A stretch of DNA of 63,571 nucleotides, the filler included, from Stramenopiles sp. TOSAG23-6 (Eukaryota): the NCBI GenBank assembly GCA_900128565.1. It is 29 parts of 29 records of this genome, joined end to end, with 100 filler letters (N's around TTAATTAATTAA, not from the genome) between each part and the next. Parts side by side here need not be neighbours in the genome. Positions count along the whole stretch, not along the records: positions 1 to 2,109 come from LT638297.1; positions 2,210 to 4,316 come from LT638298.1; positions 4,417 to 6,522 come from LT638299.1; positions 6,623 to 8,727 come from LT638300.1; positions 8,828 to 10,932 come from LT638301.1; positions 11,033 to 13,136 come from LT638302.1; positions 13,237 to 15,340 come from LT638303.1; positions 15,441 to 17,544 come from LT638304.1; 21 more parts are not named here. One strand, written 5' to 3'. Below the pieces are notes generated by a model. The model made no database searches and had not been told where the DNA came from. It saw only the letters and a program-made list of their open reading frames with translations. A program made the translations under genes and the position numbers. Shown piece by piece: positions 1 through 61,390 of the stretch; within the stretch, counting starts at the first letter, position 1; each line of letters begins with the position of its first letter.

Positions 1-181
1 GTAGGTTTTTTTAGTATGATTTTTTTTTTTTTTTTTTTTTAAACAAAAAAAAATTTTTTTTTTTTTTTTTGTTTTTTTTTTTTTTTTTTTTGAAACTAAA
101 AAAAATTTTTTTTTTTTTTTTTCATACGAAATTTCGTACCTAACAAACAAAAAAAAAAAAAAATATTTTTTCATACTATAT
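1..181 (+). mobile_element. Introner-like intron, GT...AT
   Basis: Starts GTAGGT, has core ATACGAAATTTCGTACCTAAC, ends AATATTTTTTCATACTATAT. The downstream exon is in frame with ORF 209. Confidence 0.65.
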
Positions 182-1945
182 GAAATTGTAAAGATTGAAT
201 TCCAAATAATGATATCAAATTTAATGGAACAAAAAAAACAGCAATTATCAACTATAAATGTACAAAAAAATTTGGCTTGTTTTTCACAATATAAAAATTG
301 TTTTATAGATTGTTCTCAAAAACAAAATGTGAAAATATATCTAAAGCAGGTTTGTCTGGATATATGCCACATCATCCCAAATCATTTGATGACGTCATTA
401 TTTATCAATACGAATAGTATACACCCTAATCATAAAACACAAACGAAAAACAATGAAATAAACCCTAACCCTACAACAGAAAATGGTCAATATCAAAATA
501 ATAAAATACATGAAACATCTTTTCCTAACCCTAACCCTAGCCGTAGTTCTAGTTACGTAGCAAATAAAGAAAAAAATGAAAAAAATGATAAAAATGAAAA
601 ACATGAAAAAAATGAAAAACATGAAAAAAAAGTTAAAATGCAAAGAAGACCATCTGTACTTGGAAATTTGGTAGATGTACATTTTCATTTCAAATTTATC
701 TTTTTTTCGTACGAAATTTCATAGCTAAACACAAAAAAAAAAAAAAAAAAAATTCATACAAAATTGTGTACCTAACCCTAACCAATTTTAAATTTTAAAT
801 TTTAAATTTGATATATTTTTTCAATAAACAGGTTGTCAGTGCACCACCTGTTGCTGTTATAGGCGCAGCTATAGATGCTGGTGTTGGTGTTGTCAACACT
901 GCTAGTGCAGTGTCTGGTAAATTGTGGAATGTAAAGAATATCTATTGATATCATTCTTTTTTTTTTTCAATTTTTTTTTTCAATTTTTTTTTTTTTCAAT
1001 TTTTTTTTTTTAAATTTTTTTTCAAATATAAAATATCACCCTCTTATAGTCCAACTATACCATATATACTATATCTACAATATAAAAATATAAATCTCAC
1101 AAAAAAAGAAATGAAATATTTTTACATACTATATGTCATTTCACAAAAAAATCGTGAAAAACAAAAAACTCCCGAACAAATCTCTGAATATCTCCGAATA
1201 CAAACACGAAAATCAGAAATTAAATTATGTACAGAAAATTTGGAAGAACATTTGGAAGAAAATTTTATTCCATGTGGATCTGAATTTATCGTACGAATTT
1301 TTATACCTGAAGATTTACGATCAAAACATGTATGTTTTTTTTTCTTGTATGATTTTTTTTTTTTTTTTGGTACGAAATTTCGTACCTAAACAAAAAAACA
1401 AAAAACAAAAAAATATTTTTTTTTCTTATGTATTTTGTTCATTTTTTGTTGTATGATTTTTTTTTTTTCCATAGAAAATTTCGTACCTAATGAATTTCTT
1501 TTTTTTAAATTATTTAAACAATGTAGGATTGGATTGGGTTATTTTCAAGTGAAACACGAAATAATGAAGAATTTCATTCTTATCGCAAAATGAGTTCAAA
1601 AAAACAAAAATTAACATCATTTGTCTGGTATAAAAAACATGCACCCAATTTTGCTGGTGTTTGGCAATTACGGTATTTTCATGTATGTGTTGATTATGAA
1701 TTTTTGAATTTTTTTTTTTTGAATTTTTTTTTCATACGAAATGTTGTACCTAACAAAAATTTTAATTTTTTTATACATATTTTTCAATGATACAGGGTAA
1801 AGATACCAACACACCACCACTAGCTGTTACAAACCTGCTTGTACAATTTGAAAGACGTAGATCCAACCCAAAGACTATAAAAGATAATCAAAGTCGATTT
1901 GGTATGAGAAAAGTTGTAGCAAAACTTACTAAGAATTTGTTATAG
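182..1945 (+). CDS. Multi-exon gene fragment with a C-terminal SKICH-like domain
   Basis: Exons 182-676, 832-930, 1135-1329, 1527-1682 and 1796-1945 join in frame. The spliced product contains RSKH|DWIGLF...APNFAGVWQLRYFH|GKD, resembling SKICH. TAG at 1943-1945. Confidence 0.55.
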
Positions 1946-2109
1946 ACGCTACAATAAATTTATTTTTCTAGTACCTGGACATGAACTTTTTATTTATTTT
2001 TTTTTTTACCAAAAAAAATTCAATTTTTTTTTTTTTTTTTTTTTTTTTCCAAAAAAAAATTTCTACCAAAAAATTTTTTTTTAATTTTTTTTTAAAAATT
2101 TTTTTAAAA

Positions 2110-2209: not shown

Positions 2210-2266
2210 ATTTTGTACCTAATAAATTTTAGTTTTTTTTTTTTGAAATATTTTTTCACAATACGT

Positions 2267-3745
2267 GTGCCTTTTTATGCTGTGCCTCCTGTGTTGCTAT
2301 TATTAAATGCGTTTCCTGTTAGCGCTATTGGAAAATTAGACAGAAAGCTAGTATCATCTGAAAATGCAAGAAAATTACCCAAAATGATTTCGACAATGTC
2401 AGCGAATGAAAATTATGAAAATATTAAGGAAAATAATGAAAATAATGAAAATATTAAGGAAAATAATTATAATAATGATGATGGTGTTTGTGTATCCGAG
2501 GAAGATATTTTAAAGACTCCAATTGAACATCAATTGGCATCAATTTGTACGTTTTCCTATACAATTTCAAATTTATTTTTTTATTTTTCCTAGAAAATTT
2601 CGAATTTCAAATTTATTTTTATTTTTCCTAGAAAATTTCGTACCTAATGATTCTTTTTTCGACATATTATTTTTCACTATACAGGGGAAACATTATTAAG
2701 TTTGGATACGTCCAGTGTTGGAGCATTTGATTCTTTTTTCCTCGTTGGTGGTCATTCTTTACTCGCTGTTCGTTTATGTAGGTTTTTTTTTTTTTTTGAA
2801 TTTTTTTTTAAATTTTTTTTTATAGTTTATTTTGTACCTAACAAAAAACAATTTTTAATTTTTAAATATTTTTTTTTTTGTAGCAGCTAAAATAAAAGCA
2901 GAATTCTTTACTAAAAAAGACCCGGGTAATGAATCTTCTGTATGTTTTATGAAAAATCATTTGAAATTAAGTGACATTGTTCAAAATCCTGAATTGAGAC
3001 AAATGGCAAGTTTAATTGAAGAAAGATTAAAACTTCATAATGTAAATACAAAATCGAATACAAAATCAATACATTCTGAAACATCTAAAAAATTTAATTT
3101 TTCTATTGATATAGAAACTAAATTATCTGATGATATTTATCCTGCAGCAACACGAAAAACGGGATATTCACGAGTTCGTCCATTTCAACAAATTGAATCA
3201 AATAAGGTTCCAAATCGGATATTATTGACTGGAGCTACTGGTTTTCTCGGTGCTTTTCTATTATTAGAATTGTTATCAAATACGACAGCGACAATTTATT
3301 GTATTGTCCGTGCTAAAAATGATGATATTGCTTTCAAAAGAATAATTGATAATTTATCAAAGTATGACATGAATAATGATATTATTCTTTCAAGTATTGA
3401 AAACGATCGAATTATTGGAATCTCTGGTGATTTATCGCGTATGTTTTTGTATCATGAATTTTACTATTTATTCCTTACAAAAAATAGGTTTTTTTATTTG
3501 TGTAGTACAAAATTTCATACCTAACAAAAACAAAAACAAATTTCAATATTTTTTTTTTCCTTTATAGTAAATTTCATACCTAACAAAAACAAAAACAAAT
3601 TTCAATATTTTTTCATGATACATGTCCTTTGGTAGGATTATCCACTCGGGCGTTTCAAGAATTAGCAACAATTATTGATGTCATTATTCACAATGGTGCA
3701 GAAGTGAATTTAATAAAATCATATGAATCACTTAAATCTACAAAT
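2267..3745 (+). CDS. NRPS-like / Lys2-like enzyme fragment (adenylation C-terminus, carrier domain, thioester reductase)
   Basis: PFYAVP...GKLDRKL (end of A domain); LASIW...FFLVGGHSLLAVRL (carrier domain with phosphopantetheine Ser); ILLTGATGFLG, GDLSRPLVGLS and IIHNGAEVN (reductase). Introns 2547-2684, 2778-2883 and 3439-3623. Confidence 0.85.
3439..3623 (+). mobile_element. Introner-like intron, GT...AT, with internal tandem duplication
   Basis: Excising GTATGT...GATACAT gives GDLS-R-PLVGLS. The upstream AG leads to a stop, and the downstream AG deletes the conserved PLVG. Confidence 0.8.
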
Positions 3746-3907: not shown

Positions 3908-4028
3908 GTACATTTTCATCATTCATTTTGTTTTACGTAATTCGTGTTTTTTTTTTTTAAAAATTTTGTACCTAACAAAATATTTTGAAACATTTTCAAA
4001 AAAAAAAAAATATTTTTACACAATACAT
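3908..4028 (+). mobile_element. Introner-like intron, GT...AT, in a Ser/Asp-rich exon
   Basis: GTACAT...CACAATACAT joins DNS-S-SESSESS in frame. AT is repeated at both junctions. Confidence 0.7.
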
Positions 4029-13136: not shown

Positions 13137-13291
13137 NNNNNNNNNNNNNNNNNNNNNNNNNNNNNNNNNNNNNNNNNNNNTTAATTAATTAANNNNNNNN
13201 NNNNNNNNNNNNNNNNNNNNNNNNNNNNNNNNNNNNCATACGAAATTTCGTACCTAACGATTTTTTTTTGAAATATTTTTTCACAATACTT

Positions 13292-14224
13292 GTTTTGGAG
13301 GAATTTTGCTTTCTTTGATATCTGCTATAATTTTGTATGGCTTCTCTCTTGCCCCCGAATTGTACGTTGTCCACTTTAATTTCAAATTGATATTTTTTCG
13401 TACAAAATTTCGTACTTGACAATTTTTTTTGAAACGTCTTATCTTTTTGTACGCTTTTGTCCACTTTAATTTCATTTTTTTTGTTTTTTTTACTATGAAA
13501 ATTTTATACCTAACGATTTTTTTCAAATCAAAAAAAAATATTCTTTCACAATCTTTGTGTTCAACCAATAATATCAGAACTGTTGATTATTTTGAACAAA
13601 TGAGGTTGCTCCATTCGAATATGTTTGGAGTTTGTGAACATGGTCATTACATAATACAAATGTATGTTTGATATGAATTTCTAATTTGTTTTTTCCATAC
13701 GAAATTTCGTACCTAACGATTTTTTTACTAAAAAAATATTTTTTCATAAACCATATTTTTTGATTGTTTGCCACGATTGACACTTCTTCAATATGTTTTG
13801 ATTGACATTGCCACGGCAGTGGCAGGTGTTTTTGGTGACTTATTTCAATCAATGCTTAAAAGAGCTGCAGGTGTAAAGGATTCAGGAAAATGTACGTTTT
13901 CATTTTTTTTTTTCATACGAAATTTTGTACCTAAAATGTTTTTTTCATACGATTTCTTTTTTTAAATTTTTTATTATAAGAAACTCAACAAATTTCAAAC
14001 GTAAAACATATTTTTCACAATACTTTAATTCCTGGCCATGGAGGTCTTTTAGATCGTCTTGATTCTCTTTTACCCGCCGCTATTGTATTATATTCATGTA
14101 TGTTTTATTTTTTTTCAATTTTTTTCAAAAAAATTTTTTCAAAAAAATTTGTACCTAACAAATTTTCAAATTTTTTTTTGAAATATTTTTCCAAAATACA
14201 TGTATGATGTATGTAAAAACATAA
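13292..14224 (+). CDS. Phosphatidate cytidylyltransferase (CDP-diacylglycerol synthase), C-terminal exons
   Basis: The spliced product contains [33 protein letters not shown]. Introns 13362-13556, 13662-13754, 13892-14025 and 14098-14201. Confidence 0.9.
13362..13556 (+). mobile_element. Introner-like intron, GT...TT (two partial tandem units)
   Basis: gaa tt|GTACGT...CACAATCTTT|g tgt is in frame. TT is repeated at both junctions. Confidence 0.7.
13892..14025 (+). mobile_element. Introner-like intron, GT...TT, inside the cytidylyltransferase signature
   Basis: Only this excision (or its 2-nt shifted equivalent) gives [11 protein letters not shown]. The upstream AG gives TAA, and the downstream AG removes IPGHG. 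Confidence 0.88.
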
Positions 14225-14377: not shown

Positions 14378-15287
14378 TTAAAATGGTACTGCTTGGTACA
14401 ATGTAGCAGCCCCTTTACGACAACGAGGACAAGTATCTGATAAAGAAACATCCTTTAACCAATCTCTTATTTCGAGTAATTCAGATGTATTGTGAAAAAA
14501 AAATTTAGTTAAAAAAATCGTTAGGTACGAAATTTCGTATGAAAACCAAAAAAAAAAATAAATTAGAAATTCATATCAAACGTACATCTTCCGAGACGAA
14601 TAATTTCATCACGTTGATATGATGCAGCCAATATAATACGAGATACAGCCCATTGAGCTGCTAGACGAACTGAAGCGTCCTGATGAAAGCGTACCACGAG
14701 CACTACTTGAAGCATAGCACGTGCCATGTATTTTGGAAAAATATAACAAAAAAAATAATAAAATTTGTTAGGTACAACATTTCGTACGAAACAAAAATCG
14801 ATTTTTTTGTTAAAAAAAAAAATAAAACATACATTCGGGCAGTTTGAGGCCCTCTACGGGAAAGTTCTACAAACGTGCTAACTGCTCGAAGTAAATTGCA
14901 AAGAACAAGGCTATCTGCACCAAGCAAATCGAGACGGGGCATTGTCAACGGTTGATCATGTCTTTTGGAAAAATATTTCACAAAAAAAAAATCGTTAGGT
15001 ACAAAATTTCGTACGAAAAAAAAATCGAATTTGAAAAAAAAAAAAAAACATACATATTTCTGTAACAGTGGAAAAAAAAATGAACCTGCAACATTTGCAA
15101 ATTGATTTGGTTTTGATATTTTTACTTTTCTTCTTCCTGAACCCCACCGTCGTGTCTTTTCATTTTTTTTTGATATTGTTTTTGATATGCTTTCTATTCT
15201 TTGTCTGTCATTCCCAATCGTACCCTCTGATGAAATGTCCACAGTATCTACGCTATCAACAGCACCCTCTGGTAACCAACATTGACC
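14378..15287 (-). CDS. TELO2: Telomere length regulation protein TEL2 homologue, C-terminal exons
   Basis: NQFANVAGSFFFPLLQKY|DQPL...DLLGADSLVL...TAR-M-ARAMLQVVLVVRFHQDASVR...S-ELLEIRDWLKDV resembles the TELO2 C-terminus. Introns 14958-15053, 14726-14832 and 14485-14585. Confidence 0.82.
14726..14832 (-). mobile_element. Introner-like intron, GT...AT
   Basis: cga at|GTATGT...CCAAAATACAT|g gca is in frame. The next two AGs are phase 1 while the donor is phase 2, so using them frameshifts. Confidence 0.88.
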
Positions 15288-15440
15288 ATGTATTTTGGAA
15301 AAATATTTCAAAAAAAAAAAAACTAAAATTTGTTAGGTACNNNNNNNNNNNNNNNNNNNNNNNNNNNNNNNNNNNNNNNNNNNNTTAATTAATTAANNNN
15401 NNNNNNNNNNNNNNNNNNNNNNNNNNNNNNNNNNNNNNNN

Positions 15441-16632
15441 AAGAAGGCTCCGAAGAAACGAAAGGCTAAAAAGCAAGTGGTTAGTATCAGTAGTGATGAT
15501 GAAGCATATGCTCCCGTTGATGAGTCCTCCTCCCCCACGAAAAAGAAATCCTCGAAAAAGTCAAAAAAGACAAAGACTTCTACGTCTTCATCATGTGCTC
15601 AGCCAAAGAAGAAATCTAAAAAAAGTTCAAAATCTACAAAAACAACAAAATCTATTAGTTCAAGTCAAACAATGGAATTACCCGACTTCGCGTCTGCTCC
15701 AGCTCCTTCGAAAAAAAAGTCTGGATATGCATTTTACAAAAGGTCTGGTGGCTCTGCTCCACCTCCAATGGCCGGCCAAAAGCCGAAACCGAAACCTAGA
15801 GATGGTTGTTTTGTCAAAGAAAATGGAAAGGGAATGTCATTTGTTATAACAGGTGTCCAAGAATCGTTAGAACGTGGAGCTGTAGAGGCTTTAATCAAAG
15901 CATGTGGTGGATTAGTCAAGTCAGGTGTAAGTGGAGTTACGGATTATCTCTTGGCAGGGGTGGTACTTGAAGATGGTCGACAAACATGTGAAAGCTCAAA
16001 GTATAGAAAGGCGAGTGGTAAGTTTGCTAAAACGTGTAAGATCATTTCAGAAACTGAATTGTTCAAATTAATTGATCCCAAATATGATCCTGAAGGCGCA
16101 GTGGAAGACGACTATGTTCCACCAGATCCAAATGCAATAAAAGATGAAAAGAAGAAAAACACACAACCAAAAAAGAAGCGAAAAACAAAAAAATCTACTA
16201 AGGAAAATGATTTTGAAAAGAATAACAAGAAAAGAAAAATTCCACAGCTTGTTGAAGACAATGAAGAAAATATGAAAAAAAAGAAAAAAAAAACACCACC
16301 AAAAAAGAAGCGAAAAACTCAAAACAAAAAGTCAACCAAAAAATTATCACAAGATGTCAGTATAGCAATGTATGTTTTATTTTTTTTTAAATTCGAATTT
16401 GTTTTCGTACGAAATATCGTACCTAACGATTTTCTTTTGAAATATTTTTCCAAAATACATAGGAGCTTTAAAAGATGCTCAGAAAAGTCTGTTTGCAACG
16501 CGACACAAGGAATTGATGCGCCTTACTGCAGTTGTTTTGGTGGGTATGTGCAAAGATATTGGAGCTAGTGTCGAGAAGGCAAAGAAATCTATTCTTTGTG
16601 ATAGAATTATCCACGCCGAAAATGATTTTTAA
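15441..16632 (+). CDS. BRCT-domain protein (RFC1-like BRCT) with a probable C-terminal SAP-like motif
   Basis: GMSFVITGVQESLERGAVEALIKACGG...VSGVTDYLLAG (BRCT). After intron 16370-16460: LMRLTAVVLVGMCKDIGASVEKAKKSILCDRI, TAA. Confidence 0.65.
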
Positions 16633-17493: not shown

Positions 17494-17644
17494 ATGTATT
17501 TTGGAAAAATATTTGAAAAAAAAATCGTTAGGTACAAAATTTCGNNNNNNNNNNNNNNNNNNNNNNNNNNNNNNNNNNNNNNNNNNNNTTAATTAATTAA
17601 NNNNNNNNNNNNNNNNNNNNNNNNNNNNNNNNNNNNNNNNNNNN

Positions 17645-22109: not shown

Positions 22110-24079
22110 TGGTTTTTCGTACAGAACCTTCATAAGATGCTGCTTCATAGCTTTCACAATTAATAGAGGACGAATTGGTAGGTAAACTACAATATAACAC
22201 TCTATCGCAATATGAAGGTGTACGTTTCTCTACATAACTTTCAGATGTATTTTGAAAAAATATTTCAAAAAAATCGTTAGGTACAAAATTTCGTACGAAA
22301 ACAAATTCGAATTTGAAAAAAAAATAAAACATACATGGTCTTTGTGGTAGTTTATCTTGTTTACGTTTTTGAAGTTTAGCCTCAAGTGCCTGGAATGCAG
22401 CAAATGCAGCAGCTTCCATCGATGACCAGGCTGCAGCAAATGTATTGTGAAAACCTATTTGAAATTTGAAATTCGTTAGATACAAAAATTGGCACGAAAT
22501 TATTTTTATGAAATTCATCATATAAAAGCACAAGCAATTTCAGCTGCTATACCAGTTGCTATGCATGCACGACGTTCCGGTGAGGGCATTCCAGTCGCTT
22601 CATTACTTCTTCTAATGTCCTTACTTAATGCGCTTATATTCCGAAACGACATTGAGTCAGCTTGTTGGGCTCGAACTGCATGTGAAACTTCACCTCCCCC
22701 AAAATTTGGATTCTTTTCGTTCTTTTCGCTCTTTTTTCGTTTCAGTTTGAACGTTGGAGGAAAATTTATAGGTGATTCTTTAAACCCCTGTAAACAGTTA
22801 CCCGCGCGCATTTCTGACAAAAGTTCATCCGCTTCCATGAAACATGCCCAACTCCCTGAAGTTTTGCTAGACCCACCACATCGATCCACCATACTACGCA
22901 CTGCTGCTCTGTGAGCGACGTGAACGAAATGTGATCTTTCATCATGAGATGGCCAAGCCATAGCTTTTGAGTCAAAATCACTCATATTTACACTTTTTGA
23001 TATTACATCGCTATCTTCCTGTACCCCTCTGTAATTAGAAAATGATGGACATGCATTTTGGAAAAATATTTCAAAAAAATCTAAAAAAATATTTTGTTAG
23101 GTACAAAATTTCGTATGAAAAAAAAAATTCGATTTTTTTGTAAAAAAAAAAAAATAAAACATACATGGAGGAATGTAATCATTATTAGTGTCATTAACGG
23201 TAGATCCTTGTGAGAAACGTCTTTTTCTACTACAAAGTGACAGATCGATTCTGTAGTTCAGATCTCCAAAATAAAAAACATGTTCAAATTGAAACTGAAG
23301 TTGAATAATTTCGTCAATTTTTGAATTCGGTGTAATATCAGAAACTGTCGAAAGCAAAGGCCATTTTAATGTTGCAGCGACAGAATCTTTTAGCGTTGTA
23401 GCAACAGAATTGATAACCGTTCCAGCTGCTGAATTTGCCGCAGAAATCCAAGATCCATCATCTTTTTCATGATTCGAACTCGATTCATTACTATTATATG
23501 TATTTCTTCTAGATGAACTGTTCAATATATTTTGCAATTTATCTGAATTCGCGGGAGACTCTTTTTCATTTGGAATAGTAGTATTCATTGAAACTTCAAA
23601 GCTTCTTTTACTATGAGAAGAATGTGAAACTTTTCTTTTTTTTGCTCTTTTTTCGTGATATGTATTTTGGAAAAATATTTCAAAATTTACTATAAAAAAA
23701 ATATTTGTTAGGTACAAAATTTCATGTAAAAAACAATTCAATTTCAAATTTAAAAAAAAAAATAAAACATACATTTGCATCTATGAAAATGTAATAATTT
23801 CATAGCAGTGGTAAAAACTTCTTCTGTTTGTTTGTTTCTATCTTTGCATCTGCCTTCATGTGCAGCCAAGTGAACATTTATTAAACAAATCGATGGAAAA
23901 TGTATTTTTCGTGTGGTTCTTTTTATATTTTGTCTATTTTTTTTACTATTTGATATATCTTCTTCTTTTCTATTCTGTGCATAATTTTTATTATTTTTAG
24001 AGCAATTAAGAGGTTTCTGAGAACACAAATCATCTTCTGTTTCGTATACAGTTAATTCTCTAAATCGCAATGTAGCAAC
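22110..24079 (-). CDS. Inositol polyphosphate 5-phosphatase fragment
   Basis: INVHLAAHEG, VFYFGDLNYRI, FKESPINFPPTFK and RTPSYCDRVLY are joined in frame by introns 23660-23772, 23051-23164, 22440-22531 and 22245-22334, all ending in AT. Confidence 0.88.
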
Positions 24080-24251
24080 ATATAGTGTGAAAAATATTTT
24101 TTTTTTTTTTTTTAAAATTGTTAGGTACAAAATTTACTACGAAAAAAAAAAANNNNNNNNNNNNNNNNNNNNNNNNNNNNNNNNNNNNNNNNNNNNTTAA
24201 TTAATTAANNNNNNNNNNNNNNNNNNNNNNNNNNNNNNNNNNNNNNNNNNN

Positions 24252-34091: not shown

Positions 34092-34101
34092 TGGGAAAAA
34101 A

Positions 34102-34135
<34 letters not shown>

Positions 34136-34196
34136 TTTTTTGGTTAAAATTTTTTTTTTTTTTTACGAAAAAAAAAAAAAAATTGTTAGGTACAAA

Positions 34197-34235
<39 letters not shown>

Positions 34236-34316
34236 TTTTTTAGGGACAAAATTTTTTTCAAAAAAAAAAAAAAAAAAAAAATCGATTTTTTTGTAAAAAA
34301 AAAAATAAAATATACA

Positions 34317-34513
34317 TAATTTTTCGTGCTTTCCATCTGTAAATTCCAACAATTACGGACAAGACTAACAAAACAATAATTGAAAAAATAATTAATCCTA
34401 TCTTGATGTTCTCTTCTGATTCACAATCATAACACACTCCCCAATGTATATACATATCTGGAAAAAACACTTTGTTACCAAGCTTACAGAGATGACACAA
34501 TGTATTGTGAAAA

Positions 34514-34553
<40 letters not shown>

Positions 34554-35239: not shown

Positions 35240-37334
35240 ATTCATCTTCAATATCTTCATCATCATAAACAATAAACTGTTTATTATCACGGAGCACTAC
35301 AAGACCCGATTTCCATCGACCATCAACCTTGGCTTGAACACGTCTATCATTCCAGAATTCAGTGGTCGTTTCGTCAATGTTTGTCATTGTAGAAGTAGCT
35401 TTATTTTCGGTATCTTCATTCATTTCAACTGCATCAGTCACATCTTCGTTCATCTCAACTGCATCAGTCACATCTTCATTCATTTCAGCATCGCACATCG
35501 ATTCAAGTTGAATTTTTACAAGGCGTTCAACTAATTCACTTTTTTTCCCACTTGAATCTGCATCAACTTCTTCAAGTTTAGATCTCAAGCTAGATACTTT
35601 TTCTTTCAAAAGTAATGCACGAATTTCAAGTACTACTGTACTATCAGGTAGTTCCACTGATTCATCTTCAATATCTTCATCATCATAAACAATAAACTGT
35701 TTATTATCACGGAGTACTACAAGACCCGATTTCCATCGACCATCAACCTTAGCTTGAACACGTCTATCATTCCAGAATTCAGTGGTCGTTTCGTCAACAT
35801 TTATCTTTTGTATCGTATTCTTATTACTAGCGACTAACGCAGCAACTTCTTCAATTACATGAAATTCTTCTAAAATATCAGATGCAATCGAATCAATTTT
35901 AATTCCTGTATCATTAGCGACATTTTCAAATAATGTGAAAAATATTTCAAATATTTTAAATTTGTTAGGTATATTCTTTGTAGGAAAGAAAAAAAAAAAG
36001 TAAAAATGTAAAAAAACAACATACAATCATCATTTTCAAATTTTCATGAGTCCCAATGGCTTTATCTATCGCAAATTCTCTCTGAGTCATATTGATATCC
36101 TCATCATCATCATCGACACAATTTGTATATTTTTCATTATTCAATTGTTTCTTTTCTTGTATTTCCAATCTGAGTGGTGTTTGCATTCGACGTCGAACAT
36201 CAGCTAGGGCGATTTGTAAATCACCAGAAGTGAGAGTAGCATCATTAATGTCATGGATTCTTTCTTCATATTTTTGAGCATTTTCAATGGCACATCGTAA
36301 AGGTGTTTGCATACGATGATATTTAGTCGTTTCTTCAAGTTTTGATTTCAATACAACTTCAGCAACACGTGCATTATGTATTGCGTCGCGCATTGGAGTT
36401 GCCATTTTATAACGAATTATTTTCATTGGTGTTTCGCCTTTTAAAGGTGTTTCTTGTTGTTCCTGTTGTTCGTCTAATGCTTCATTGAGTTCTTCATGAG
36501 CAACTCGTGCACTTTCAATAGCTACACGCAGAGGTGTTTGCATACGACGACGTTTTGCAACATCAATAGTAACTTGAAGATCATCAGTAATTGAATGCTT
36601 TACAATGTTTTGAATCCGTGATTCTATCGCAGTACGCAGAGGTGTTGCCAAGCGACGAGCTTTCTCTGTATTCGTTTCCAAAGTTATTTTTTTAGAAACA
36701 AGAGAATTTTCATTCTTAATGTTGGCTTCAACAATGGCTGAATTTAACACAACATTGGCTTTAAATGCATCAACGATGGCAGTACGTAACGGTGTGGCCA
36801 TTCTCTTTCGCAATTCTTCACTACTTAATTGTGGTGATTCTGAATGAGTATTCATAATGTGTTGTTCAATTTCAGATCGCAATGGAGTCGCCATTTTTTT
36901 ACGTTTATTTTTTTGTTGAGGTGTTTTTGTATTAATATTGTATTGCTCAATTTCAGATTTTAGTGGAGTTGCCATTTTCTTTCGTAATTCCATAAGAGTC
37001 TCATGTAATTCCACCTTAGTTTCTGATGCTTCATGCATAATGACGTCATTATTTACAACTGTTGATTCCGAACCAATTAAAGGACCGATCCAAGACATTG
37101 CATAATCACGAGCATTTGCCATTGCGGACTGAATAGGTGTCGCTGTTCTTTTTCTCTTTTCGCTGCTTTTGAATTCCGATGGGAGAATTTCTTTATTATT
37201 ACTATTTTTTTTTTCAATCGCTTTACGTAGAGGTGTTGCCATACGTCTTCTTTTTTGTTCTTGTTCAATAGCAACATCTAAGATATCTTCAGCAACACGT
37301 GCATTATGTATTGCNTCACGCATTGGAGTTGCCA
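35240..37334 (-). CDS. Repeat protein with many RRMATPLR motifs, a SAP-like motif and duplicated Tudor-like units
   Basis: ORFs 35965-37323 and 35184-36026 are joined in frame by intron 35928-36024 (GT...TT). Confidence 0.65.
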
Positions 37335-51258: not shown

Positions 51259-52411
51259 AACATTTGAACTAGTGATTCCAGCTTCTCTAATCGCAGAATC
51301 TGCATAATTTTCACTTAATGTTGGTAAGCAATCCTCATTGTATACTTCTATATGAGATGCAATGGCTCGTGCATATATCTTGAAAAAATATTTTTATAAA
51401 TTTTTGTTAGGTACAAAATTTCGTATGAAAAAAAATATTCAAAAAAAAAACTTTTAATTTTGAAAACGTACATCTGCAGCAGTTTCTGTTGCAGATTGAT
51501 ATTCTGCAGTCTTTGCAACTGACATTTGCTTTATCCATGTATTTTGGAAAAATATTTCAAAAAAAATCTAAAAAAATTCGTTAGGTACAAAATTTCGTAT
51601 GAAACCAAAAAAAAAAATTCATACCAAAAAAAAAATAAAACATACATGGACAAGATATAAGATTAGTATCTATAATAGATGTCAATGTTCTAACATCATT
51701 CAATTCAAATAAACTACTAAATAGTTGTATAGTTGCAATTGATATTTCATTTGAAGTTGAATTAACTCTATGAATCAAAATTTCACGAAAATTTTGATGT
51801 GTATTTTGTTGTGTTGTAGACAAAATATCATTCGTACAATTTTGTTTTGTATCTCGAAGTGTATCAAACTCTTTTGTGGTTTTGATATCTACATTTTTAC
51901 TAGAACATTTTGTAGTTTTCGAATTTTCTGATATTGTGCCCATTAAAAGTTCAACTATAATTTCCAGTAATGGAGATAATTCATTTGAAGCATGTATTTT
52001 GGAAAAATATTTAAAATTAAATTGTTAGGTACAAAATTACGTACGAAAAAAAAATTCGATTTTTTTTTTTCGGTAAAAAAAAAAAATAAAAACATACATT
52101 TTTTTCACTAATAAGTTCGATAGTATTTTGAATATAAGTTGTAGCTGCAGCAGCGGAGCTTTCATTTGAAGATAAAATTGTAGGACTCACAACAGCATGT
52201 AAGAAATATTTCTTGATTAGAAATATTAAATTATCGAATAAATCAGAATTTGATTCACGAACATCAGTTGCATTAGGGTTAGGGTTTAACATTTTATTCT
52301 TTACAAAATAATTGTCATTTCTATTTCCATTCTTAAGTAATGAAAGCACGAGATTACAATACCAAATTCGTTCTTGAAATCTTTGTATTGCAGCATTTGC
52401 ATGATTTTCAT
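51259..52411 (-). CDS. FHIP/FAM160-like (RAI16-like) protein fragment
   Basis: FLHAVVSPTILSSNE...TTYI and FREILIHRV...ISIATIQLFSSLF. In-frame GT...AT introns at 51992-52097, 51537-51645 and 51373-51471. Confidence 0.55.
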
Positions 52412-52824
52412 TTGATCCATATATTTGTTGAAAATATGATTATTTTTACTAAAAAAAAAATATTAGGTATGAAATTGTCTATGAAAAATAAAAAAATAAA
52501 AAAAACATCCATTTTGAAACAAAGAAATGATGAAATTTTGTGTAAAAAAAAAAATTGAAATTCATGATGAAAATGTATCGAATAAAAACTCAAAAAAAAA
52601 AAATGTTTTTTTTTTGTTAGGTACAAAATTTTCAAAAAAAAAAAAAATAAATTCGAAATNNNNNNNNNNNNNNNNNNNNNNNNNNNNNNNNNNNNNNNNN
52701 NNNTTAATTAATTAANNNNNNNNNNNNNNNNNNNNNNNNNNNNNNNNNNNNNNNNNNNNTTAGGTACAAAATTTCGTACGAAAAAAAAAAATCGATTTTT
52801 TTGTTAAAAAAAAAAAAAACATAC

Positions 52825-54529: not shown

Positions 54530-54943
54530 ACAACCACGTTTTTTGGCGACATTAATAAATTTGTTGGAAACATACTTATAGTAACTATATATGATTGCTA
54601 TACAAATATGTTTTTCCCATTACACAAAAACCAAAGCTCTATCATAATATTCTATCAGTATTCCACCATGCAATTCAAATATTCAAAAATAAAAAGACTT
54701 ACAAAAACATAGTTTTATAGTATCATTTATTATTTATCACCAAATATAAATTGTTGTAATAATGGTATTATTTGAAGACGACATTTATTTTGGAAAAATA
54801 TTTCAAAAAAAAAATCTAAAAAAAATTGTTAGGTACAAAATTTNNNNNNNNNNNNNNNNNNNNNNNNNNNNNNNNNNNNNNNNNNNNTTAATTAATTAAN
54901 NNNNNNNNNNNNNNNNNNNNNNNNNNNNNNNNNNNNNNNNNNN

Positions 54944-57439: not shown

Positions 57440-58868
57440 TCATACAATTAAGTATTGCAAGATGCCATCGTACCATTGCTTCTGCACACCTTTAACAATA
57501 TTTTTGCCAGTGCGTGTACAAGCACCAGTGTCAATCTTTCTATGGTAAAATTGTTGCATGTTCGTACGAGCCCACTTTGGACCAATATTAGGGGGAGAGC
57601 CAATGCTGACCCTTTCCCCAAAGTCAATTTGGTTTACGTGAAGACATTGCGATATTATACACTCAAGAAAATCAACTTGTTTGACAGAGTCTGTATCTCG
57701 CTGCACGTGCATGTTAGATCCCAGTTTAGTTCTTAATTGTTCTATGCTCATAAACGAAGACAAATGCCATCCAGCATTCGCGATACTCGTGGGCCAAATG
57801 TACGGTCTGTGATTATCACGCATTTCATCAACGCACCATTTTCTATCAAGAAAAAAACCATTACAATCCAATTCTAACTGATGCCGACGCGCCACTTTGG
57901 CTCGTCTCCATTGAGGTCGTCTCTTTTCTCGACATCCAAAGTCATACATGTAGGGTATAGTGTGTAGCTCAACAGGTGTCCTGTAACCTGTACAAGAGCG
58001 AAGCATGTGAATCACGTATTGTGTAAAAATATGTCAAAGTTAAACTTGAAATTAGTTAGGTACAAATCATAGTAAAAGAATAATTTTGAAATTTAAAAGT
58101 GGACAACACGTACACATCTGCTCGTGGAATTTCATCTAAGCCTCCTAAAATAATAAGGTCATCCGGGGCGGCATTTTTTAAACCTTGAAGTTTGGCTGAC
58201 TTTTGATTGTTTGCATTTATTTTGGCTTTCTGTTCCGATAGCTTTTTATAGTGGTTGGCCGACTTTGTGAGCGAGATGTCAGTGTCTACCACTATGTGGA
58301 TGATTTTGTGCAGAAACTTCGCGAACCGCTCCTTGTTTTCGGAAAAGTGGAGCGGTTTTGGCTTTCCCGAAAATGTCACTGGGCTCTCTACGATAATAAA
58401 GTGGTCGACAACAGAATCAAGCTCATGCAGTCGAACATCCAGCATGTCAAGCTCAAAGTTAAGATTGACAAGATCCCAAACCTTGGGATGTTGGAAATTA
58501 TTGGATTGTTTATACCCTGATTCTACTCTTTGCCAGCCATGCGTTTCGCACGACACAATTTTACTGGAATCAGTGGAAGTCTCCGGTATGTGGTGGTCAA
58601 AAATGACTGGCGAATACGTAAACAAAAATAGAAATAATACAATCACAATAATGGCGACGAAACCAAAAGCAAATTGACTATTATTTAGTCTCTTCCGCAT
58701 TCCGGGCCCCTTACACTTCTTCATCCCTCGACGAGTTCGGCTACACGTTGTGCGATAGAGGGGTAGTCGTATGTTCTTGGTGGAAAGGTTTGCCACGGCA
58801 GCAGCTCCCATCTGTTTTGTTTTGGTTATAATTTTTTGTAATGGCCCGGATATTTTCCTTTTAAACAT
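57440..58868 (-). CDS. Glycosyltransferase family 17 (MGAT3-like), one intron
   Basis: ELDMLDVRLHELDSVVDHFIIVESPVTFSGKPKPL, LDEIP and AGWHLSSF; intron 58014-58113. Confidence 0.88.
58014..58113 (-). mobile_element. Introner-like intron, GT...GT
   Basis: gat gt|GTACGT...CACAATACGT|g att gives DEIPRAD-V-IHMLRSC in frame. GT is repeated at both junctions. Confidence 0.85.
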
Positions 58869-59401
58869 GATTCTTGATTTAGAAGAAATTAAAACACGTC
58901 GTAGATTATGATATAATATCTAATAATTGAATCGCTCTATTGTCATGTTATAGAAATCTAAATGATCGAAGGCAACTCTAAAAGATCTTGATGGTTGTTT
59001 TTATTCAAGCATGCAAATTGATTGACACCAAGGTTATAGAATTCTATAACCTTGTTGACACGAAATAAGTAATCTAACGTACCGTACGTTGAATTGTGGC
59101 TGAGAATGATCGAATGATGATTGACTCTCTTCTTCCATCCCCCTTCAATATAACAATTTTGATCTCTCGATCTCTTGATCAGATCATGGAGTTAGGTGAG
59201 CCTCGGAGNNNNNNNNNNNNNNNNNNNNNNNNNNNNNNNNNNNNNNNNNNNNTTAATTAATTAANNNNNNNNNNNNNNNNNNNNNNNNNNNNNNNNNNNN
59301 NNNNNNNNTTTTTTTAAAAAAAAATCGAATTTATTTTTTTATATAATTTTTTACCTAACAAATTCTAGTTTTTTTTTTTGAAATATTTTTCCAAAATACA
59401 T

Positions 59402-61390
59402 ACATCACAAATATCGAGTGCAACGCAGCCCACACAGCCGTGTATTTCATTTTCTCCGATATGTTCATCTAATTTTAAAATTGTCATTGGAAGTTTGAAA
59501 TTTATTGCAAATTTTTCTTCTCGACTGTTTTGTCGGGTTCAGTCGAATTGTCGTACTTCCTATGGTCAACGAACAGATGACGAAATATTATTACAACAAA
59601 TATTGGCTGTATTAACAACCGCGACAAAAATTACTCCATCATTCGAACATCCTGAGTATTCAAGGTATATAGACGCACTGACTGTATCGCTGTTTAATTC
59701 TTTGCAACTTTTTCGGACATATTTCTGCATAGAAAGAATAAATGATTCGAGGAGCAATCGAAAGTCAGATGTAGTCGATTCTGTCACAGCAAAGATAAAA
59801 TATATCAATACACTATTAAGTGATATGTTTCATTTAAGTATAGAGATATTGGATCATATAATTTACCCTCATTGTTGTTTTTATAATTCACCAAATAACT
59901 CTAATGATGAATGTACATTTCAAGAGAAACATTTGAGGTTATTTTACCTGGCGACAACTGATTTATATTGTAAATTACCTTGTAATACAACCAAAACTAT
60001 AAAATATATAGGACAAAATGAGTACAAAGATATTTTTCAACATTCTGACCTGATAGTAACAAAGCACAAAAACTTTTCTGAACAACAAAAAAACTGGTGA
60101 TGCGGATCCTTTCACAGGGAACAAATTTTGTTCCAAGGTCGTTTCTATGGGAATTTTGAATTTATTGGTGACCAATAGTAATCAAATGAAGGAAAACATC
60201 GATGCAAAATTATGTATCTCCTTATTTATACATATCTGTCGCCGTGTTGATATAATTCAATCGAATAAAGATTGTTTAGAATGGAGTAAATATGTACGTT
60301 TTCATTTTTTTTTCGCCTATTTTTTTTCGTAAGAAATTTTGTACCTAATAACAAAAATCTTGTAATATTTTTTCATAATACATGCCAAGGTTTTACCAGG
60401 TGTTTCACTTTTCCAATTACTTGACGTTGTCAAAGATTCTGTGAAAGATAATTACGCTGTTGGTGTATTAAATATTACAATTAGACTCATCGAAATGCTA
60501 CTATTTGATATTCAAAGTAAATTAATATTAGATACTGTTACAAACGTTTTCAACTCTTTTTTTGAAAGTAGGTACGCAGATACTCGGATGAACGAAATTT
60601 CATCAGAAACTTTTGTTAGTTTACTATACATTTGTAGCAAATGTAATGAAAACATTACAGTAAAAGTAAAACAGACATTGAATAGGTGTGCAAAATATTT
60701 TGACCCAATGATAATTCTTAAATTATTGAAGCAAAATGTATCTAAAAGAAGAAAAGACGAAAATGCCTCAGATTTCTGTATAATCTCCTTTCTTGCTCAA
60801 TTATCAGAAGAATTGTGTTCACTGTATTTACGATGTTCGATACATGCGCTGAAAAACATAGAAATTATCCATATTTTATCAAATAATTTTATTACAAAAG
60901 TAATTGTTATATGTAGTCAAAATTCCACATTCGTTTGTAGTGGCCAAAATCTAGCAAATAACCCTAACCCTAACCCAAATCTAGCAAACAATGGAAAAAA
61001 TACTTCTAAAACAGATGAACTCATTAATATGTGCGTAGAGCTTACACAATCTTTATTTTCGGAGGCATTTTCATTAACAAATATCACAAAGAATACACCT
61101 GAGAGTTTTATTATAGATAGCCAAAGTTTGCCAAAATCTATTCAAAATAGAAACCCTAACCCTAATAACTTCAATCATAGAAATGATGTGATACGAGTCG
61201 TAACAGTTTTGTCACAACTTGTTTCAGTTTTACAAAATATTCAAATACAAAACACGAATAATGATTATGCAATATCGAATGTATGCCAAAGTGTATTTAA
61301 TATTTTTCATAAAATAATTGATCCATTTTTGATGTATTTGCAAAATGAATCAATTGAAGAAAATGACACAACTGCTGCAAAAATGGCTAC
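59402..61390 (+). CDS. Hypothetical helical (HEAT-like) protein fragment; homopolymer frameshift near 60090; intron 60294-60383
   Basis: Long ORFs joined by a family intron. Confidence 0.5.

What the first reader, a model, noticed from the sequence alone, without database searches (positions are those of the whole stretch)
160..60383. Ruler-like acceptor: the 3' splice site lies 15 nt after a conserved ATAT motif, whatever the terminal dinucleotide
Seen: counting from (A/C/T)ATAT to the inferred intron end gives 15 nt at 181 (AT), 831 (AG), 1134 (AT), 1795 (AG), 2266 (GT), 3623 (AT), 4028 (AT), 13556 (TT), 13754 (AT), 16460 (AT), 42171 (AG), 48796 (AG), 50266 (AT), 58014 (GT) and 60383 (AT). 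It gives 14 nt at 14025, 35928 and 41929. The sequence between varies (CCAAAATAC, CACAATAC, CATGATAC, GCAACATTC), and the CCTAAC-to-end distance is variable. Inference: the acceptor is specified by distance from ATAT-TTTT, analogous to the constrained branch-to-3'ss spacing of U12-type or Trichomonas/Giardia introns, rather than by AG scanning.
Basis: partly seen in the sequence, partly recalled or inferred. Interest (0 to 1): 0.85.

Follow-up and report, generated by a model that had tools for sequence, protein, structure and literature searches.

The report
Transposon-born introns with non-AG ends
The genes of this AT-rich marine microbe are full of copies of one mobile-element-derived intron whose last two letters copy the two letters just before it, so most copies end in AT instead of the usual AG, and the fixed 15-letter spacing is just the element's conserved tail.

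Summary
All 18 listed sites carry ATAT 15 nt (or 14 nt) before the inferred intron end; three lie on the minus strand. I catalogued 58 such ends. The spacing is 15 nt in 40, 14 in 7, 16 in 1, 17 in 1, and 9 have no ATAT. They end in AT 43, AG 8, TT 5 and GT 2 times.

Junctions are supported by reading frames (34 of 39 complete introns), by stop-free ORFs after removing 3-4 introns per gene, by residue-exact Pfam continuity at four junctions, and by one metagenome contig that lacks a 96-nt intron exactly.

The ruler reading is not supported. Copies with a changed T-run or no ATAT mostly stay in frame when cut 2 nt after the element's terminal ..ATAC.

The introns are one very abundant, introner-like (MITE-like) family: GTAYGT, a palindrome plus TACCTAAC, a T-tract, and short terminal inverted repeats (GTATG...CATAC). 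The last two intron letters repeat the last two exon letters (27 of 39; GT/GT, TT/TT and AG/AG covary). This fits a 2-bp target-site duplication in a C-AT-G-like target.

So the acceptor does look AG-independent, but it is placed by the element end plus the duplication. No spliced RNA was seen.

The parts
677..831 (+). complete family intron, GT..AG, 5' flank AT, ATAT+15
   Evidence: in frame
1330..1526 (+). complete intron (two tandem cores), GT..AG, flank AT, no ATAT near the end
1683..1795 (+). complete intron, GT..AG, flank AT, ATAT+15
2547..2684 (+). complete intron, GT..AG, flank TT, ATAT+17
   Evidence: downstream exon matches PP-binding
2778..2883 (+). complete intron, GTAGGT..AG, flank AT, ATAT+14
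3439..3623 (+). complete intron, GT..AT, 5' flank GC (no repeat; GT follows the intron), ATAT+15
   Evidence: NAD_binding_4 profile 71|72|73 across the junction
3908..4028 (+). complete intron, GT..AT, flank AT
13362..13556 (+). complete intron, GT..TT with 5' flank TT (covarying repeat)
13662..13754 (+). complete intron, GT..AT, flank AT
13892..14025 (+). complete intron, GT..TT, flank AT, ATAT+14
   Evidence: CTP_transf_1 profile 235|236|237 across the junction
14098..14201 (+). complete intron near the gene's end, GT..AT, flank AT; frame not testable
14485..14585 (-). complete intron, GT..AT, flank AT, ATAT lost (ATTT)
14726..14832 (-). complete intron, GT..AT, flank AT
   Evidence: RNA-run contig runs 42 nt into it (record 25)
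14958..15053 (-). complete intron, GT..AT, flank AT; exactly absent from one metagenome contig
   Evidence: table 8 record 12 (14807-14956 joined to 15053-15250, no other letters)
16370..16460 (+). complete intron, GT..AT, flank AT
22245..22334 (-). complete intron, GT..AT, flank AT
22440..22531 (-). complete, degenerate copy, GTGCTT..AT, flank TT, no ATAT
23051..23164 (-). complete intron, GT..AT, flank AT
23660..23772 (-). complete intron, GT..AT, flank AT
33344..33447 (-). complete intron, GT..AT, flank AC, no ATAT
33949..34315 (-). long complete intron (several cores), GTATAT..AT, flank AT
34500..34630 (-). complete intron, GT..AT, flank AT, ATAT+14
35928..36024 (-). complete intron, GT..TT with flank TT (covarying), ATAT+14
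39784..39895 (-). complete intron, GT..AT, flank AT
40702..40826 (-). complete intron, GT..AT, flank AT; holds a (CCCTAA)2 stretch
40962..41130 (-). complete intron, GT..AT, flank AT
41288..41410 (-). complete intron, GT..AT (..AAAAAAAAT), flank AT
42015..42171 (+). complete intron, GTAATT..AG, flank AT
   Evidence: Pkinase profile 161|162|163 across the junction
42701..42815 (-). complete intron, GT..AT, flank AT, ATAT+16; frame unresolved
42946..43078 (-). complete intron, GT..AT, flank AT, ATAT+14; frame unresolved
43186..43317 (-). complete intron, GT..AG, flank AT, ATAT lost (ATAC)
48796..48899 (-). complete intron, GT..AG with flank AG (covarying)
50174..50266 (+). complete intron, GT..AT, flank AT
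51130..51258 (-). complete intron whose 3' end (AAAACATAC+AT) is a perfect 9-nt inverted copy of its 5' end; flank TT; frame unresolved
51373..51471 (-). complete intron, GT..AT, flank AT
51537..51645 (-). complete intron, GT..AT, flank AT
51992..52097 (-). complete intron, GT..AT, flank AT
58014..58113 (-). complete intron, GT..GT with flank GT (covarying)
   Evidence: Glyco_transf_17 profile 189|190 across the junction
60294..60383 (+). complete intron, GT..AT, flank AT
1..181 (+). intron whose upstream exon is off the window, ..AT
1111..1134 (+). family 3' end, ..AT; 5' part not identified
2210..2266 (+). 3' part of an intron cut by a contig end, ..GT
13237..13291 (+). 3' part of an intron cut by a contig end, ..TT
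15288..15340 (-). 3' part cut by a contig end, ..AT
17494..17544 (-). 3' part cut by a contig end, ..AT
24080..24152 (-). 3' part cut by a contig end, ..AT, ATAT+14
28499..28550 (-). 3' part cut by a contig end, ..AT
41821..41929 (+). intron at a contig start (only ATAT of the upstream exon is left), ..AT, ATAT+14
41542..41720 (-). intron with two cores, ..AT, no ATAT; 5' end not fixed
42504..42606 (-). intron GTACAT..AAAT, flank AT; read by eye, not in the frame test
43544..43678 (-). intron GTTTGT..ACAT, flank AT, ATAT lost; read by eye, not in the frame test
43820..43911 (-). 3' part cut by a contig end, ..AT
45758..45859 (+). 3' part after an N gap, ..TT
50574..50630 (+). 3' part cut by a contig end, ..AT
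52419..52510 (-). degenerate copy, ..AT; 5' end unclear
54783..54843 (-). 3' part cut by a contig end, ..AT (same sequence again at 56966-57026)
59309..59401 (+). 3' part cut by a contig end, ..AT
61491..61544 (+). 3' part cut by a contig end, ..AT

Best explanation
The introns are copies of one very abundant, non-autonomous mobile element of the introner (MITE-like) kind. The element brings its own donor (GTAYGT), a 16-nt palindrome followed by a branch-like TACCTAAC, a T-rich tract, and a conserved 3' terminal block (ATATTTTTCCAAAATAC or ATATTTTTTCACAATAC). The end of that block, ..CATAC or ..ATAC, is an inverted copy of the start, GTATG... Insertion duplicates two bases of the target, usually the AT of a C-AT-G-like site. 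The piece removed from the transcript is the element plus one copy of that duplication. So the intron starts at the element's GT and ends 2 nt after the element's last base, and its last two letters are whatever the target was: AT in most cases, also TT, GT or AG. The constant 15 nt from ATAT to the end is 13 conserved element bases plus the 2-nt duplication. It is not a measuring device. Shown: the family, its signals, the direct repeat, the frame-exact junctions, and one intron-less contig. Inferred: DNA transposition as the way it spreads; removal by a spliceosome that accepts a non-AG acceptor at that position; and the idea that AG-ending copies with an AT 5' flank arose by a T-to-G change of the last base. 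Where the repeat is perfect, the same mRNA results if both cuts lie 2 nt upstream, which for AT repeats would make an AT..AC intron. Sequence alone cannot tell which bonds are cut.
For: Family and abundance: about 58 copies in 59,968 non-N bases, alignable end to end. At least a dozen contig ends fall inside the core. 12,512 of 119,919 contigs of run X1 and 2,990 of 22,991 of X4 lay on the one 2.1-kb stretch, with summed depth in intron bins 10^3-10^4 times that of exon bins (the tool warns that this is not a copy number). Signals: 39 of 39 complete introns start with GT, and 33 of 39 with GTAYGT. The core plus TACCTAAC matches at 20 or more of 26 positions in 32 of 39. All 39 are in the sense orientation of the flanking frames. 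Inverted ends: GTATGTTTT...AAAACATAC is a perfect 9-nt pair at 51130-51258; GTAT..ATAC is found in the main subfamily. Direct repeat: the last 2 nt of exon 1 equal the last 2 nt of the intron in 27 of 39 (20,000 permutations: mean 21.4, p = 0.002). Of 9 introns with a non-AT 5' flank, 4 carry the same non-AT letters at the intron end (TT, TT, AG, GT). Target: position -3 is C in 16 of 39, -2 is A in 32, -1 is T in 36, and +1 is G in 23 of 39, against about 16% C or G overall. Junctions: frames (34 of 39), multi-intron frames, Pfam continuity at four junctions. Empty site: X3 record 12 lacks 96 nt exactly, keeps one AT, has no other differences in 348 nt, and still holds the first 26 nt of the neighbouring intron. 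Other X3 contigs keep introns. A further copy with an AT/AT repeat, no ATAT and an in-frame junction lies in an unrelated metagenome contig, L014. Architecture known elsewhere: introners that carry the 5' site and co-opt the 3' site from the duplication (10.1101/2022.06.06.494994, passages and the Fig. 2 legend read).
Against: No spliced RNA was seen. The one RNA run (X7) gave a contig running 42 nt into intron 14726-14832 and one stopping at 15053. The kind of run X3 is only guessed ('DNA?'), so record 12 could be a partly spliced transcript rather than an empty allele. The repeat is imperfect in 12 of 39, and the covariation rests on 4 introns. Because AT dominates both positions, an intrinsic AT at the intron end plus a preference for exon ends in AT would give most matches by themselves. 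Five of 39 introns are not best in frame at the catalogued end. Of these, 14201 is at a gene end. 51537 has a short exon but sits inside the 293-codon frame. 42946 and 42701 flank one 130-nt exon; a single base error there would reconcile both, but this is untested. After 51130 the frame stops 11 codons on. The inverted ends are short (3-4 bp) in the CACAATAC subfamily. AG-ending copies are not more diverged in the core than AT-ending ones (Mann-Whitney p = 0.70), so 'older copies become canonical' is not supported. No autonomous element or transposase was found or could be looked for, because no genome is held.
Confidence: 0.7

Rival explanations
1. One reading: the splicing machinery binds ATAT-TTTT and cuts a fixed 15 nt downstream, whatever the letters there.
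For: 40 of 49 ends that have an ATAT within range are at exactly 15 nt, including diverged copies (831, 1795, 13556, 42171, 48796, 58014). At 42946 (14 nt) a cut at ATAT+15 would fit the frame entering the next exon.
Against: 5 of 7 complete introns with spacing 14, 16 or 17 are in frame at the element end +2 (or at their AG) and would be out of frame at +15. 14025 is fixed at +14 by Pfam continuity. 5 of 6 complete introns without any ATAT are still in frame at the homologous end. 51130-51258 has no ATAT and no T-run near its end. The spacing lies inside a conserved repeat block that shows ordinary indels.
Confidence: 0.07
2. Structure-guided, possibly non-spliceosomal excision, as proposed for euglenid or hemistasiid nonconventional introns and for Amoebophrya introner elements. 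Pairing of the inverted ends (G1 with the C at -3) brings the two junctions together, and the cuts fall at fixed offsets from the helix.
For: Inverted ends plus a direct repeat over the boundary is the layout described for Amoebophrya (PMC7789003, passages read) and for nonconventional introns (PMC12621601, sections 3 and 5 and passages). In 4 of 12 folded introns the minimum-energy structure closes with GUAU:AUAC and leaves a 2-nt 3' overhang.
Against: Fold energies are ordinary (z from -0.02 to -2.2; 6 of 12 show no end pairing). The end helix is only 3-4 bp in the CACAATAC subfamily. Strongly conserved GTAYGT and TACCTAAC are spliceosomal signals, which nonconventional introns are said to lack (PMC6221363 abstract).
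Confidence: 0.12
3. Both cuts lie 2 nt upstream of where they are drawn. The intron is then the duplicated AT plus the element (AT..AC), i.e. a U2-type AT-AC intron whose first and last bases pair in the known A-C way, and the varying 'terminal dinucleotide' is an artefact of where the boundary is drawn.
For: For the 23 AT/AT introns among the 27 with a perfect repeat, the mRNA is identical under either reading. Most elements end in ..AC. That A1-C(-1) termini work in the major spliceosome is recalled knowledge (Parker and Siliciano 1993; not read here).
Against: Under this reading the first dinucleotide would vary (AT, GT, TT, AG), and many copies would end in AT or AA. At 2684 this reading loses the conserved Trp of the carrier-domain motif, and at 3623 it gives Cys where relatives have a basic residue (both motifs recalled, weak). 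The invariant GTAYGT fits a cut before G.
Confidence: 0.08
4. The elements are removed from DNA (ciliate-IES-like) rather than from RNA, and the window shows a germline-like form.
For: Short AT-rich elements sit in coding DNA, bounded by a 2-nt direct repeat with inverted ends. One contig lacks an element exactly.
Against: The organism's own runs assemble with the elements in place. The contig that lacks intron 14958-15053 still holds the start of the neighbouring intron. Frames are open under the standard code. Spliceosomal signals are conserved.
Confidence: 0.03

Closest known systems
[quoted passage not shown] Chrysochromulina sp. (10.1101/2022.06.06.494994, passages and Fig. 2 legend; PMC12130899, passages)
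   Same: A high-copy, near-identical intron family within genes, in sense orientation. It has terminal inverted repeats and a target-site duplication. The donor is element-borne and the acceptor is made from the duplication, so splicing restores the pre-insertion mRNA.
   Different: There the duplication supplies a canonical AG. Here the duplication is 2 bp, mostly AT, so 50 of 58 acceptors are non-AG. The 2025 survey says it discarded mainly non-canonical families that it could not verify from transcripts, so a family like this one would not have been kept.
Amoebophrya introner elements (PMC7789003, passages)
   Same: A marine protist with repeated introns that have inverted repeats at both ends and a short direct repeat overlapping the boundaries. 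Termini are non-canonical, and a MITE-like origin has been discussed.
   Different: Amoebophrya: 3-5 nt repeats, 8-20 nt inverted repeats, no conserved terminal dinucleotides at either end, and U1 not found. Here: a 2-nt repeat, 3-9 nt inverted ends, an invariant GT / GTAYGT donor and a yeast-like branch motif.
Nonconventional introns of euglenids and hemistasiid/eupelagonemid diplonemids (PMC12621601, sections 3 and 5 and passages; PMC6221363, abstract and passages; Gawryluk et al. 2016 not held)
   Same: Non-GT-AG borders, short direct repeats at the borders, pairing of intron ends proposed, and a MITE origin proposed.
   Different: Those lack U1-complementary donors and, in hemistasiids, have G/C-rich ends. 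Here the donor is canonical, the sequence is AT-rich and folding is unremarkable.
Fritillaria borealis non-canonical introns (PMC13326754, abstract and passages)
   Same: Genome-wide use of non-AG acceptors by what is thought to be a U2-type spliceosome.
   Different: In Fritillaria both ends are non-canonical, and divergent U2AF paralogues recognise the 3' ends. Nothing is known about U2AF here.
U12-type (AT-AC) introns and the fused branch/acceptor motif of Trichomonas and Giardia (consensus sequences recalled, from no call)
   Same: The idea that the acceptor is set by position relative to an upstream signal. For AT repeats, an AT..AC reading is possible.
   Different: There is no /RTATCCTT donor. 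The branch-like motif lies at a variable distance, about 40-65 nt and up to about 100 nt, from the end, instead of a fixed short distance. There is no ACTAACACACAG-type motif.

Membership tests
Introner (transposon-derived intron family) | Many near-identical copies that are introns of unrelated genes | tested here: met
   58 ends in about 60 kb across genes of different Pfam families. About 10% of the contigs of X1 and 13% of X4 match the laid stretch.
Introner (transposon-derived intron family) | Target-site duplication: locus-specific match between the 5' and 3' boundary | tested here: met
   27 of 39 match (p = 0.002 by permutation). 4 of 9 non-AT flanks covary. The number of covarying cases is small.
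Introner (transposon-derived intron family) | Terminal inverted repeats | tested here: met
   GTATG...CATAC. Perfect 9 nt at 51130-51258; only 3-4 nt in the CACAATAC subfamily.
Introner (transposon-derived intron family) | Presence/absence of a copy between individuals | tested here: inconclusive
   One contig of X3 lacks intron 14958-15053 exactly, but the kind of that run is only guessed to be DNA.
Introner (transposon-derived intron family) | Canonical GY-AG splice sites, as in the families described so far | tested here: not met
   The donor GT is present in 39 of 39, but the acceptor is non-AG in 50 of 58.
Introner (transposon-derived intron family) | Removal from RNA at the annotated borders | not testable with these tools
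   There is only one RNA run with a small share, and it showed no spliced contig. Support comes from coding continuity only.
U12-type introns | Donor /RTATCCTT, and branch TCCTTAAC 10-20 nt from the acceptor (recalled) | tested here: not met
   The donor is GTAYGT in 33 of 39. TACCTAAC lies about 40-65 nt and up to about 100 nt from the end.
Trichomonas/Giardia-type introns | Branch site fused to the acceptor at a fixed short distance, ending in AG (recalled) | tested here: not met
   The branch-motif-to-end distance is variable, and 50 of 58 ends are non-AG.
Euglenozoan nonconventional introns | No conserved GT / no U1-type donor | tested here: not met
   GT in 39 of 39, GTAYGT in 33 of 39.
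Euglenozoan nonconventional introns | Stable pairing that brings the two ends together | tested here: inconclusive
   4 of 12 minimum-energy folds close with GUAU:AUAC. 2 of 12 pair the ends in another register and 6 of 12 not at all. z-scores range from -0.02 to -2.2.
Amoebophrya introner elements | Direct repeat of 3-5 nt over the boundary plus an inverted repeat of 8-20 nt | tested here: inconclusive
   The layout is the same but shorter: a 2-nt repeat (3 nt where the next exon starts with G) and 3-9 nt inverted ends.
Ciliate-type internal eliminated sequences | Removed from somatic DNA, so the element-free form dominates DNA | tested here: inconclusive
   The assembled DNA keeps the elements. 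The one element-free contig keeps the neighbouring element.

The most novel reading that the evidence does not exclude
In this organism the second step of splicing does not read AG at all. An otherwise yeast-like intron (GTAYGT, CTAAC branch motif) is cut at a position fixed by the inserted element's end: 2 nt past the base that mirrors the donor G, where the 3' junction CAT|G copies the 5' junction CAT|G. Any 2-bp target duplication is then accepted as the intron's end. That would make every insertion of this element scarless at once, and it would explain about one such intron per kb of assembled sequence. It would be a natural, genome-wide GT..AT intron system that links ordinary introners to the non-canonical intron floods of Fritillaria, Amoebophrya and hemistasiid diplonemids.
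Probability: 0.4. Interest if true: 0.85.

Novelty: new variant of a known kind. Interest (0 to 1): 0.6.

Why it matters
Introners are the best-supported source of bursts of intron gain. Every family accepted so far yields canonical GY-AG introns, and mainly non-canonical families that could not be checked against transcripts were dropped from the large 2025 survey (PMC12130899, passage read). Separately, a few lineages have genomes flooded with non-canonical introns whose origin and removal are not understood. This family sits between the two. It keeps a textbook donor and branch motif, yet its acceptor is whatever 2-bp duplication the insertion made. If RNA confirms this, it shows how a transposon can create non-AG introns directly. 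It would also give a simple system (one family, a fixed geometry, natural variants with TT, GT, AG and AT ends and with 14-17-nt spacings) for asking how a spliceosome finds an acceptor without AG. For genome annotation, GT-AG-based gene finders would fail on most genes of this organism.

Tried and rejected
- Whole-genome search: no genome is held.
- Earlier findings of this scan: nothing on this genome or on similar sequence; the word hits were unrelated Ostreococcus and tRNA reports.
- RNA evidence: the single sequencing-run run gave one RNA run (X7, share 0.07). Laid on 13237-15340, it showed no spliced joint. Parts without cover say nothing.
Only one contig could therefore be laid.
- More copies from public collections: metagenome contigs gave 0 hits with a 22-mer. 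With an 18-mer it gave 17 loci, of which only L002 (probably chimeric) and L014 hold the family. Genome contigs gave one chance hit in a Bacteroidales MAG.
- Same-species spliced proteins, or relatives that might name the taxon: the search for homologous proteins found nothing for two exons at near lengths. The protein atlas gave only the GT17 family. The taxon therefore stays unknown; I did not try to identify the sample or study.
- 'AG-ending copies are older': rejected on core identity (p = 0.70).
- Length bias of introns: from the lengths listed I counted 12, 13 and 14 introns with length mod 3 = 0, 1 and 2, so there is no bias.
- Pfam continuity gave nothing for 13556, 13754 and 48796, and no upstream match for 2684.
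- Rfam on the window: only two tRNA hits and no snRNA.
- Papers: Gawryluk et al. 2016 is not held. I could not see whether its single-cell diplonemid introns resemble these. No supplements were consulted. Searches found no paper that describes GT..AT introners.

Full report
**What the window is.** The 63,571 bases are not one locus. They are a chain of contigs of about 2.1 kb joined by N44-TTAATTAATTAA-N44 linkers. The sequence is AT-rich, with 19-36% G+C per 2 kb. It encodes ordinary eukaryotic proteins: an NRPS-like reductase, phosphatidate cytidylyltransferase, a protein kinase, a family-17 glycosyltransferase, an inositol-phosphatase-type domain, and LCCL, TPR and EamA domains. The stretch 50574-60500 is held by three small runs labelled with one organism, by seawater or marine metagenomes, and in small part by one metatranscriptome. 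No whole genome is held. I did not try to name the organism.

**The observation.** All 18 listed coordinates check out. 35928, 48796 and 58014 are on the minus strand. I extended the list by scanning for the 3' motif and for the branch-like TACCTAA, and catalogued 58 ends: 39 complete introns and 19 others. ATAT-to-end is 15 nt in 40, 14 in 7, 16 in 1 and 17 in 1, and 9 have no ATAT in range. The last two letters are AT 43, AG 8, TT 5 and GT 2. The copies are homologous over their whole length. Their parts, in order, are:
- GTAYGT followed by T-rich sequence;
- a perfect 16-nt palindrome, GTACGAAATTTCGTAC (often ..TTTTGTAC), running into CCTAAC;
- a T-rich spacer of variable length;
- a conserved terminal block, GAAATATTTTTCCAAAATAC or AAATATTTTTTCACAATAC, and then two more letters.

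**Are the inferred ends true junctions?** Four lines of evidence bear on this.
- With the donor fixed at GT, the catalogued 3' end gives the longest joint open frame in 34 of 39 complete introns, against about one third expected by chance.
- Removing several introns at once gives stop-free frames:
  - 538 codons for four introns in the phosphatase gene;
  - 265 codons for three introns;
  - 199 codons for three introns;
  - 127 codons for three introns;
  - four junctions lie inside one 293-codon frame.
- Pfam profile positions continue without a gap or overlap across four junctions:
  - CTP_transf_1 235 | split codon 236 | 237 at 14025 (GT..TT, the 14-nt case);
  - NAD_binding_4 71 | 72 | 73 at 3623 (GT..AT);
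  - Glyco_transf_17 189 | 190 at 58014 (GT..GT);
  - Pkinase 161 | 162 | 163 at 42171 (GT..AG).
- One contig of run X3 joins 14956 to 15053 with no other difference over 348 nt. It therefore lacks the 96-nt intron exactly and keeps a single AT (table 8, record 12).

Against this, there is no spliced RNA. The RNA run's contigs run into an intron or stop at its edge.

Five introns are not best in frame at the catalogued end:
- 14201 lies at a gene's end.
- 51537 has a short downstream exon, but it is inside the 293-codon frame.
- 42946 and 42701 flank the same 130-nt exon. One base error there would reconcile both, but this is untested.
- After 51130 the frame stops 11 codons on.

**Why the last two letters vary.** The last two letters of the upstream exon equal the last two letters of the intron in 27 of 39 complete introns (permutation mean 21.4, p = 0.002). 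AT dominates both positions, so the informative cases are the non-AT ones. Of nine introns with a non-AT 5' flank, four carry the same letters at the intron end: TT at 13556 and 35928, AG at 48796, and GT at 58014. These are direct repeats, not inverted ones. The flanks show a C-AT-G-like target: position -3 is C in 16 of 39, position +1 is G in 23 of 39, against about 16% C or G overall. The element's ends mirror each other. GTATG...CATAC is the general form, and there is a perfect 9-nt pair at 51130-51258. Six of the eight AG-ending introns have an AT 5' flank. That is most simply a T-to-G change of the last intron base. However, AG-ending copies are not more diverged in the core (p = 0.70), so I make no claim about their age.

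**Abundance and mobility.**
- About one in ten contigs of the organism's own runs matches the single 2.1-kb stretch that was laid: 12,512 of 119,919 for X1 and 2,990 of 22,991 for X4.
- Summed depth in intron bins is 10^3-10^4 times that of exon bins. The tool warns that this is not a copy number.
- At least a dozen contig ends fall inside the core, which explains the fragmented assembly.
- Phases and lengths look random: the phases listed are about evenly split, and length mod 3 is 12/13/14, counted.
- All 39 complete copies are in the sense orientation.
- One more copy, with an AT/AT repeat, no ATAT and an in-frame junction, lies in an unrelated metagenome contig, L014.

**The ruler.** The constant 15 nt is real, but it is 13 bases of a conserved terminal block plus the 2-nt repeat.
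- When the T-run has lost or gained a base, the junction stays with the end of the block and not with ATAT: 5 of 7 complete off-15 introns are in frame there, and 14025 is proven by Pfam.
- When ATAT itself has mutated, 5 of 6 are still in frame at the homologous end.
- 51130-51258 has neither ATAT nor a T-run near its end.
- Within the block I counted 94 substitutions and at most 24 indel events in 58 copies (the indel count is inflated by the alignment), so length is not specially protected.
- The branch-like motif is at a variable distance, so the U12 and Trichomonas analogies do not hold.

**How it most likely works.** Shown: a mobile-element-like intron family that brings a canonical donor and a branch motif, and whose removed segment is the element plus one copy of a 2-nt boundary repeat. 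Inferred: spread by cut-and-paste DNA transposition with a 2-bp duplication, and removal by a spliceosome that accepts YAT, YTT or YGT as well as YAG at that place. What positions the second-step cut is unknown. Candidates are:
- the terminal block itself;
- weak pairing of GUAU with AUAC, which leaves the repeat as a 2-nt overhang (seen in 4 of 12 folds, with ordinary energies);
- the likeness of the 3' junction (CAT|G) to the 5' junction (CAT|G).

For AT repeats the same mRNA would result from an AT..AC intron shifted 2 nt upstream. The invariant GTAYGT and two weak protein arguments favour the cut before G.

**Comparison with what is known.** Introners that carry their donor and take the acceptor from the duplication are described, but with AG (preprint 10.1101/2022.06.06.494994, passages). 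The 2025 survey dropped mainly non-canonical families that it could not verify from transcripts (PMC12130899, passage). Amoebophrya introner elements share the layout of direct repeat plus inverted repeat, but they lack any conserved terminal dinucleotides (PMC7789003, passages). Euglenid and hemistasiid nonconventional introns lack a U1-type donor (PMC12621601, sections 3 and 5; PMC6221363, abstract and passages). Fritillaria uses divergent U2AF for non-AG ends (PMC13326754, abstract). My four literature searches found no paper on GT..AT introners. The 2016 single-cell diplonemid paper could not be read, and no supplements were seen. I rate this a new variant of a known kind, with the caveat that RNA proof is missing.

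Noticed in passing
window 461-473, 527-539, 34790-34802(-), 40805-40817(-), 42562-42574(-), 43391-43403(-), 45146-45158, 45221-45233, 49559-49571(-), 52274-52286(-), 60960-60978, 61152-61164 and others: There are short telomere-like (CCCTAA)2 stretches: 17 matches to AACCCTAACCCTA with up to 1 mismatch, against 0.01 expected. In the cases I looked at, the C-rich strand lies on the sense strand of the local gene, both in exons (read as Asn-Pro-Asn-Pro) and in introns. L014 also holds such stretches. This may be a second kind of small insertion.
   Followed up: partly
window 4417-6522 vs 37435-39527; 52760-54843 vs 54944-57026: Pairs of contigs in the chain are near-duplicates, with the same ORFs and the same tRNA. 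The second pair differs in its LRR region. They may be alleles, paralogues or assembly redundancy.
   Followed up: no
window 6187-6260 and 39205-39278 (+): A tRNA gene (Rfam RF00005, 68 bits) is present in both duplicate contigs. A family-like core (TACCTAACG) lies about 100 nt upstream, at 6075 and 39093, apparently outside a long coding frame.
   Followed up: no
window 14703-15332 (-), 15393-16568 (+), 22518-23780 (-): The intron family is stop-free in one frame (for example ..MYVLFFF..VRNFVPN..KYFSKIH..), so stop-to-stop ORFs read straight through several introns. Intron lengths show no multiple-of-3 bias.
   Followed up: partly
window 14834 -> 15285-15288 (joints in read-laying table 5): Many contigs of X1, X3 and X4 join an element's 3' end almost directly to another element's 5' end. 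Several window introns hold two cores (1330-1526, 3439-3623, 13362-13556, 41542-41720, 42015-42171). This suggests tandem or nested insertions, perhaps because an element's own ..CAT|G end re-creates the preferred target.
   Followed up: no
contig ends, e.g. 2210, 13237, 15340, 17544, 28550, 43911, 50574, 54843, 61491: Many contigs begin or end inside the intron core (..CGTACGAAATTTTGTACCTAAC..). The repeat family is what breaks the assembly into pieces of about 2 kb.
   Followed up: partly
L014 (3221 nt) 400-540: The related metagenome contig also has an apparently ordinary GT..AG intron (gtacgtca...gtacctaatg...ttcacag) with the same branch-like motif. The GTACCTAA motif may therefore be the lineage's general branch signal and not only an element feature.
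   Followed up: no
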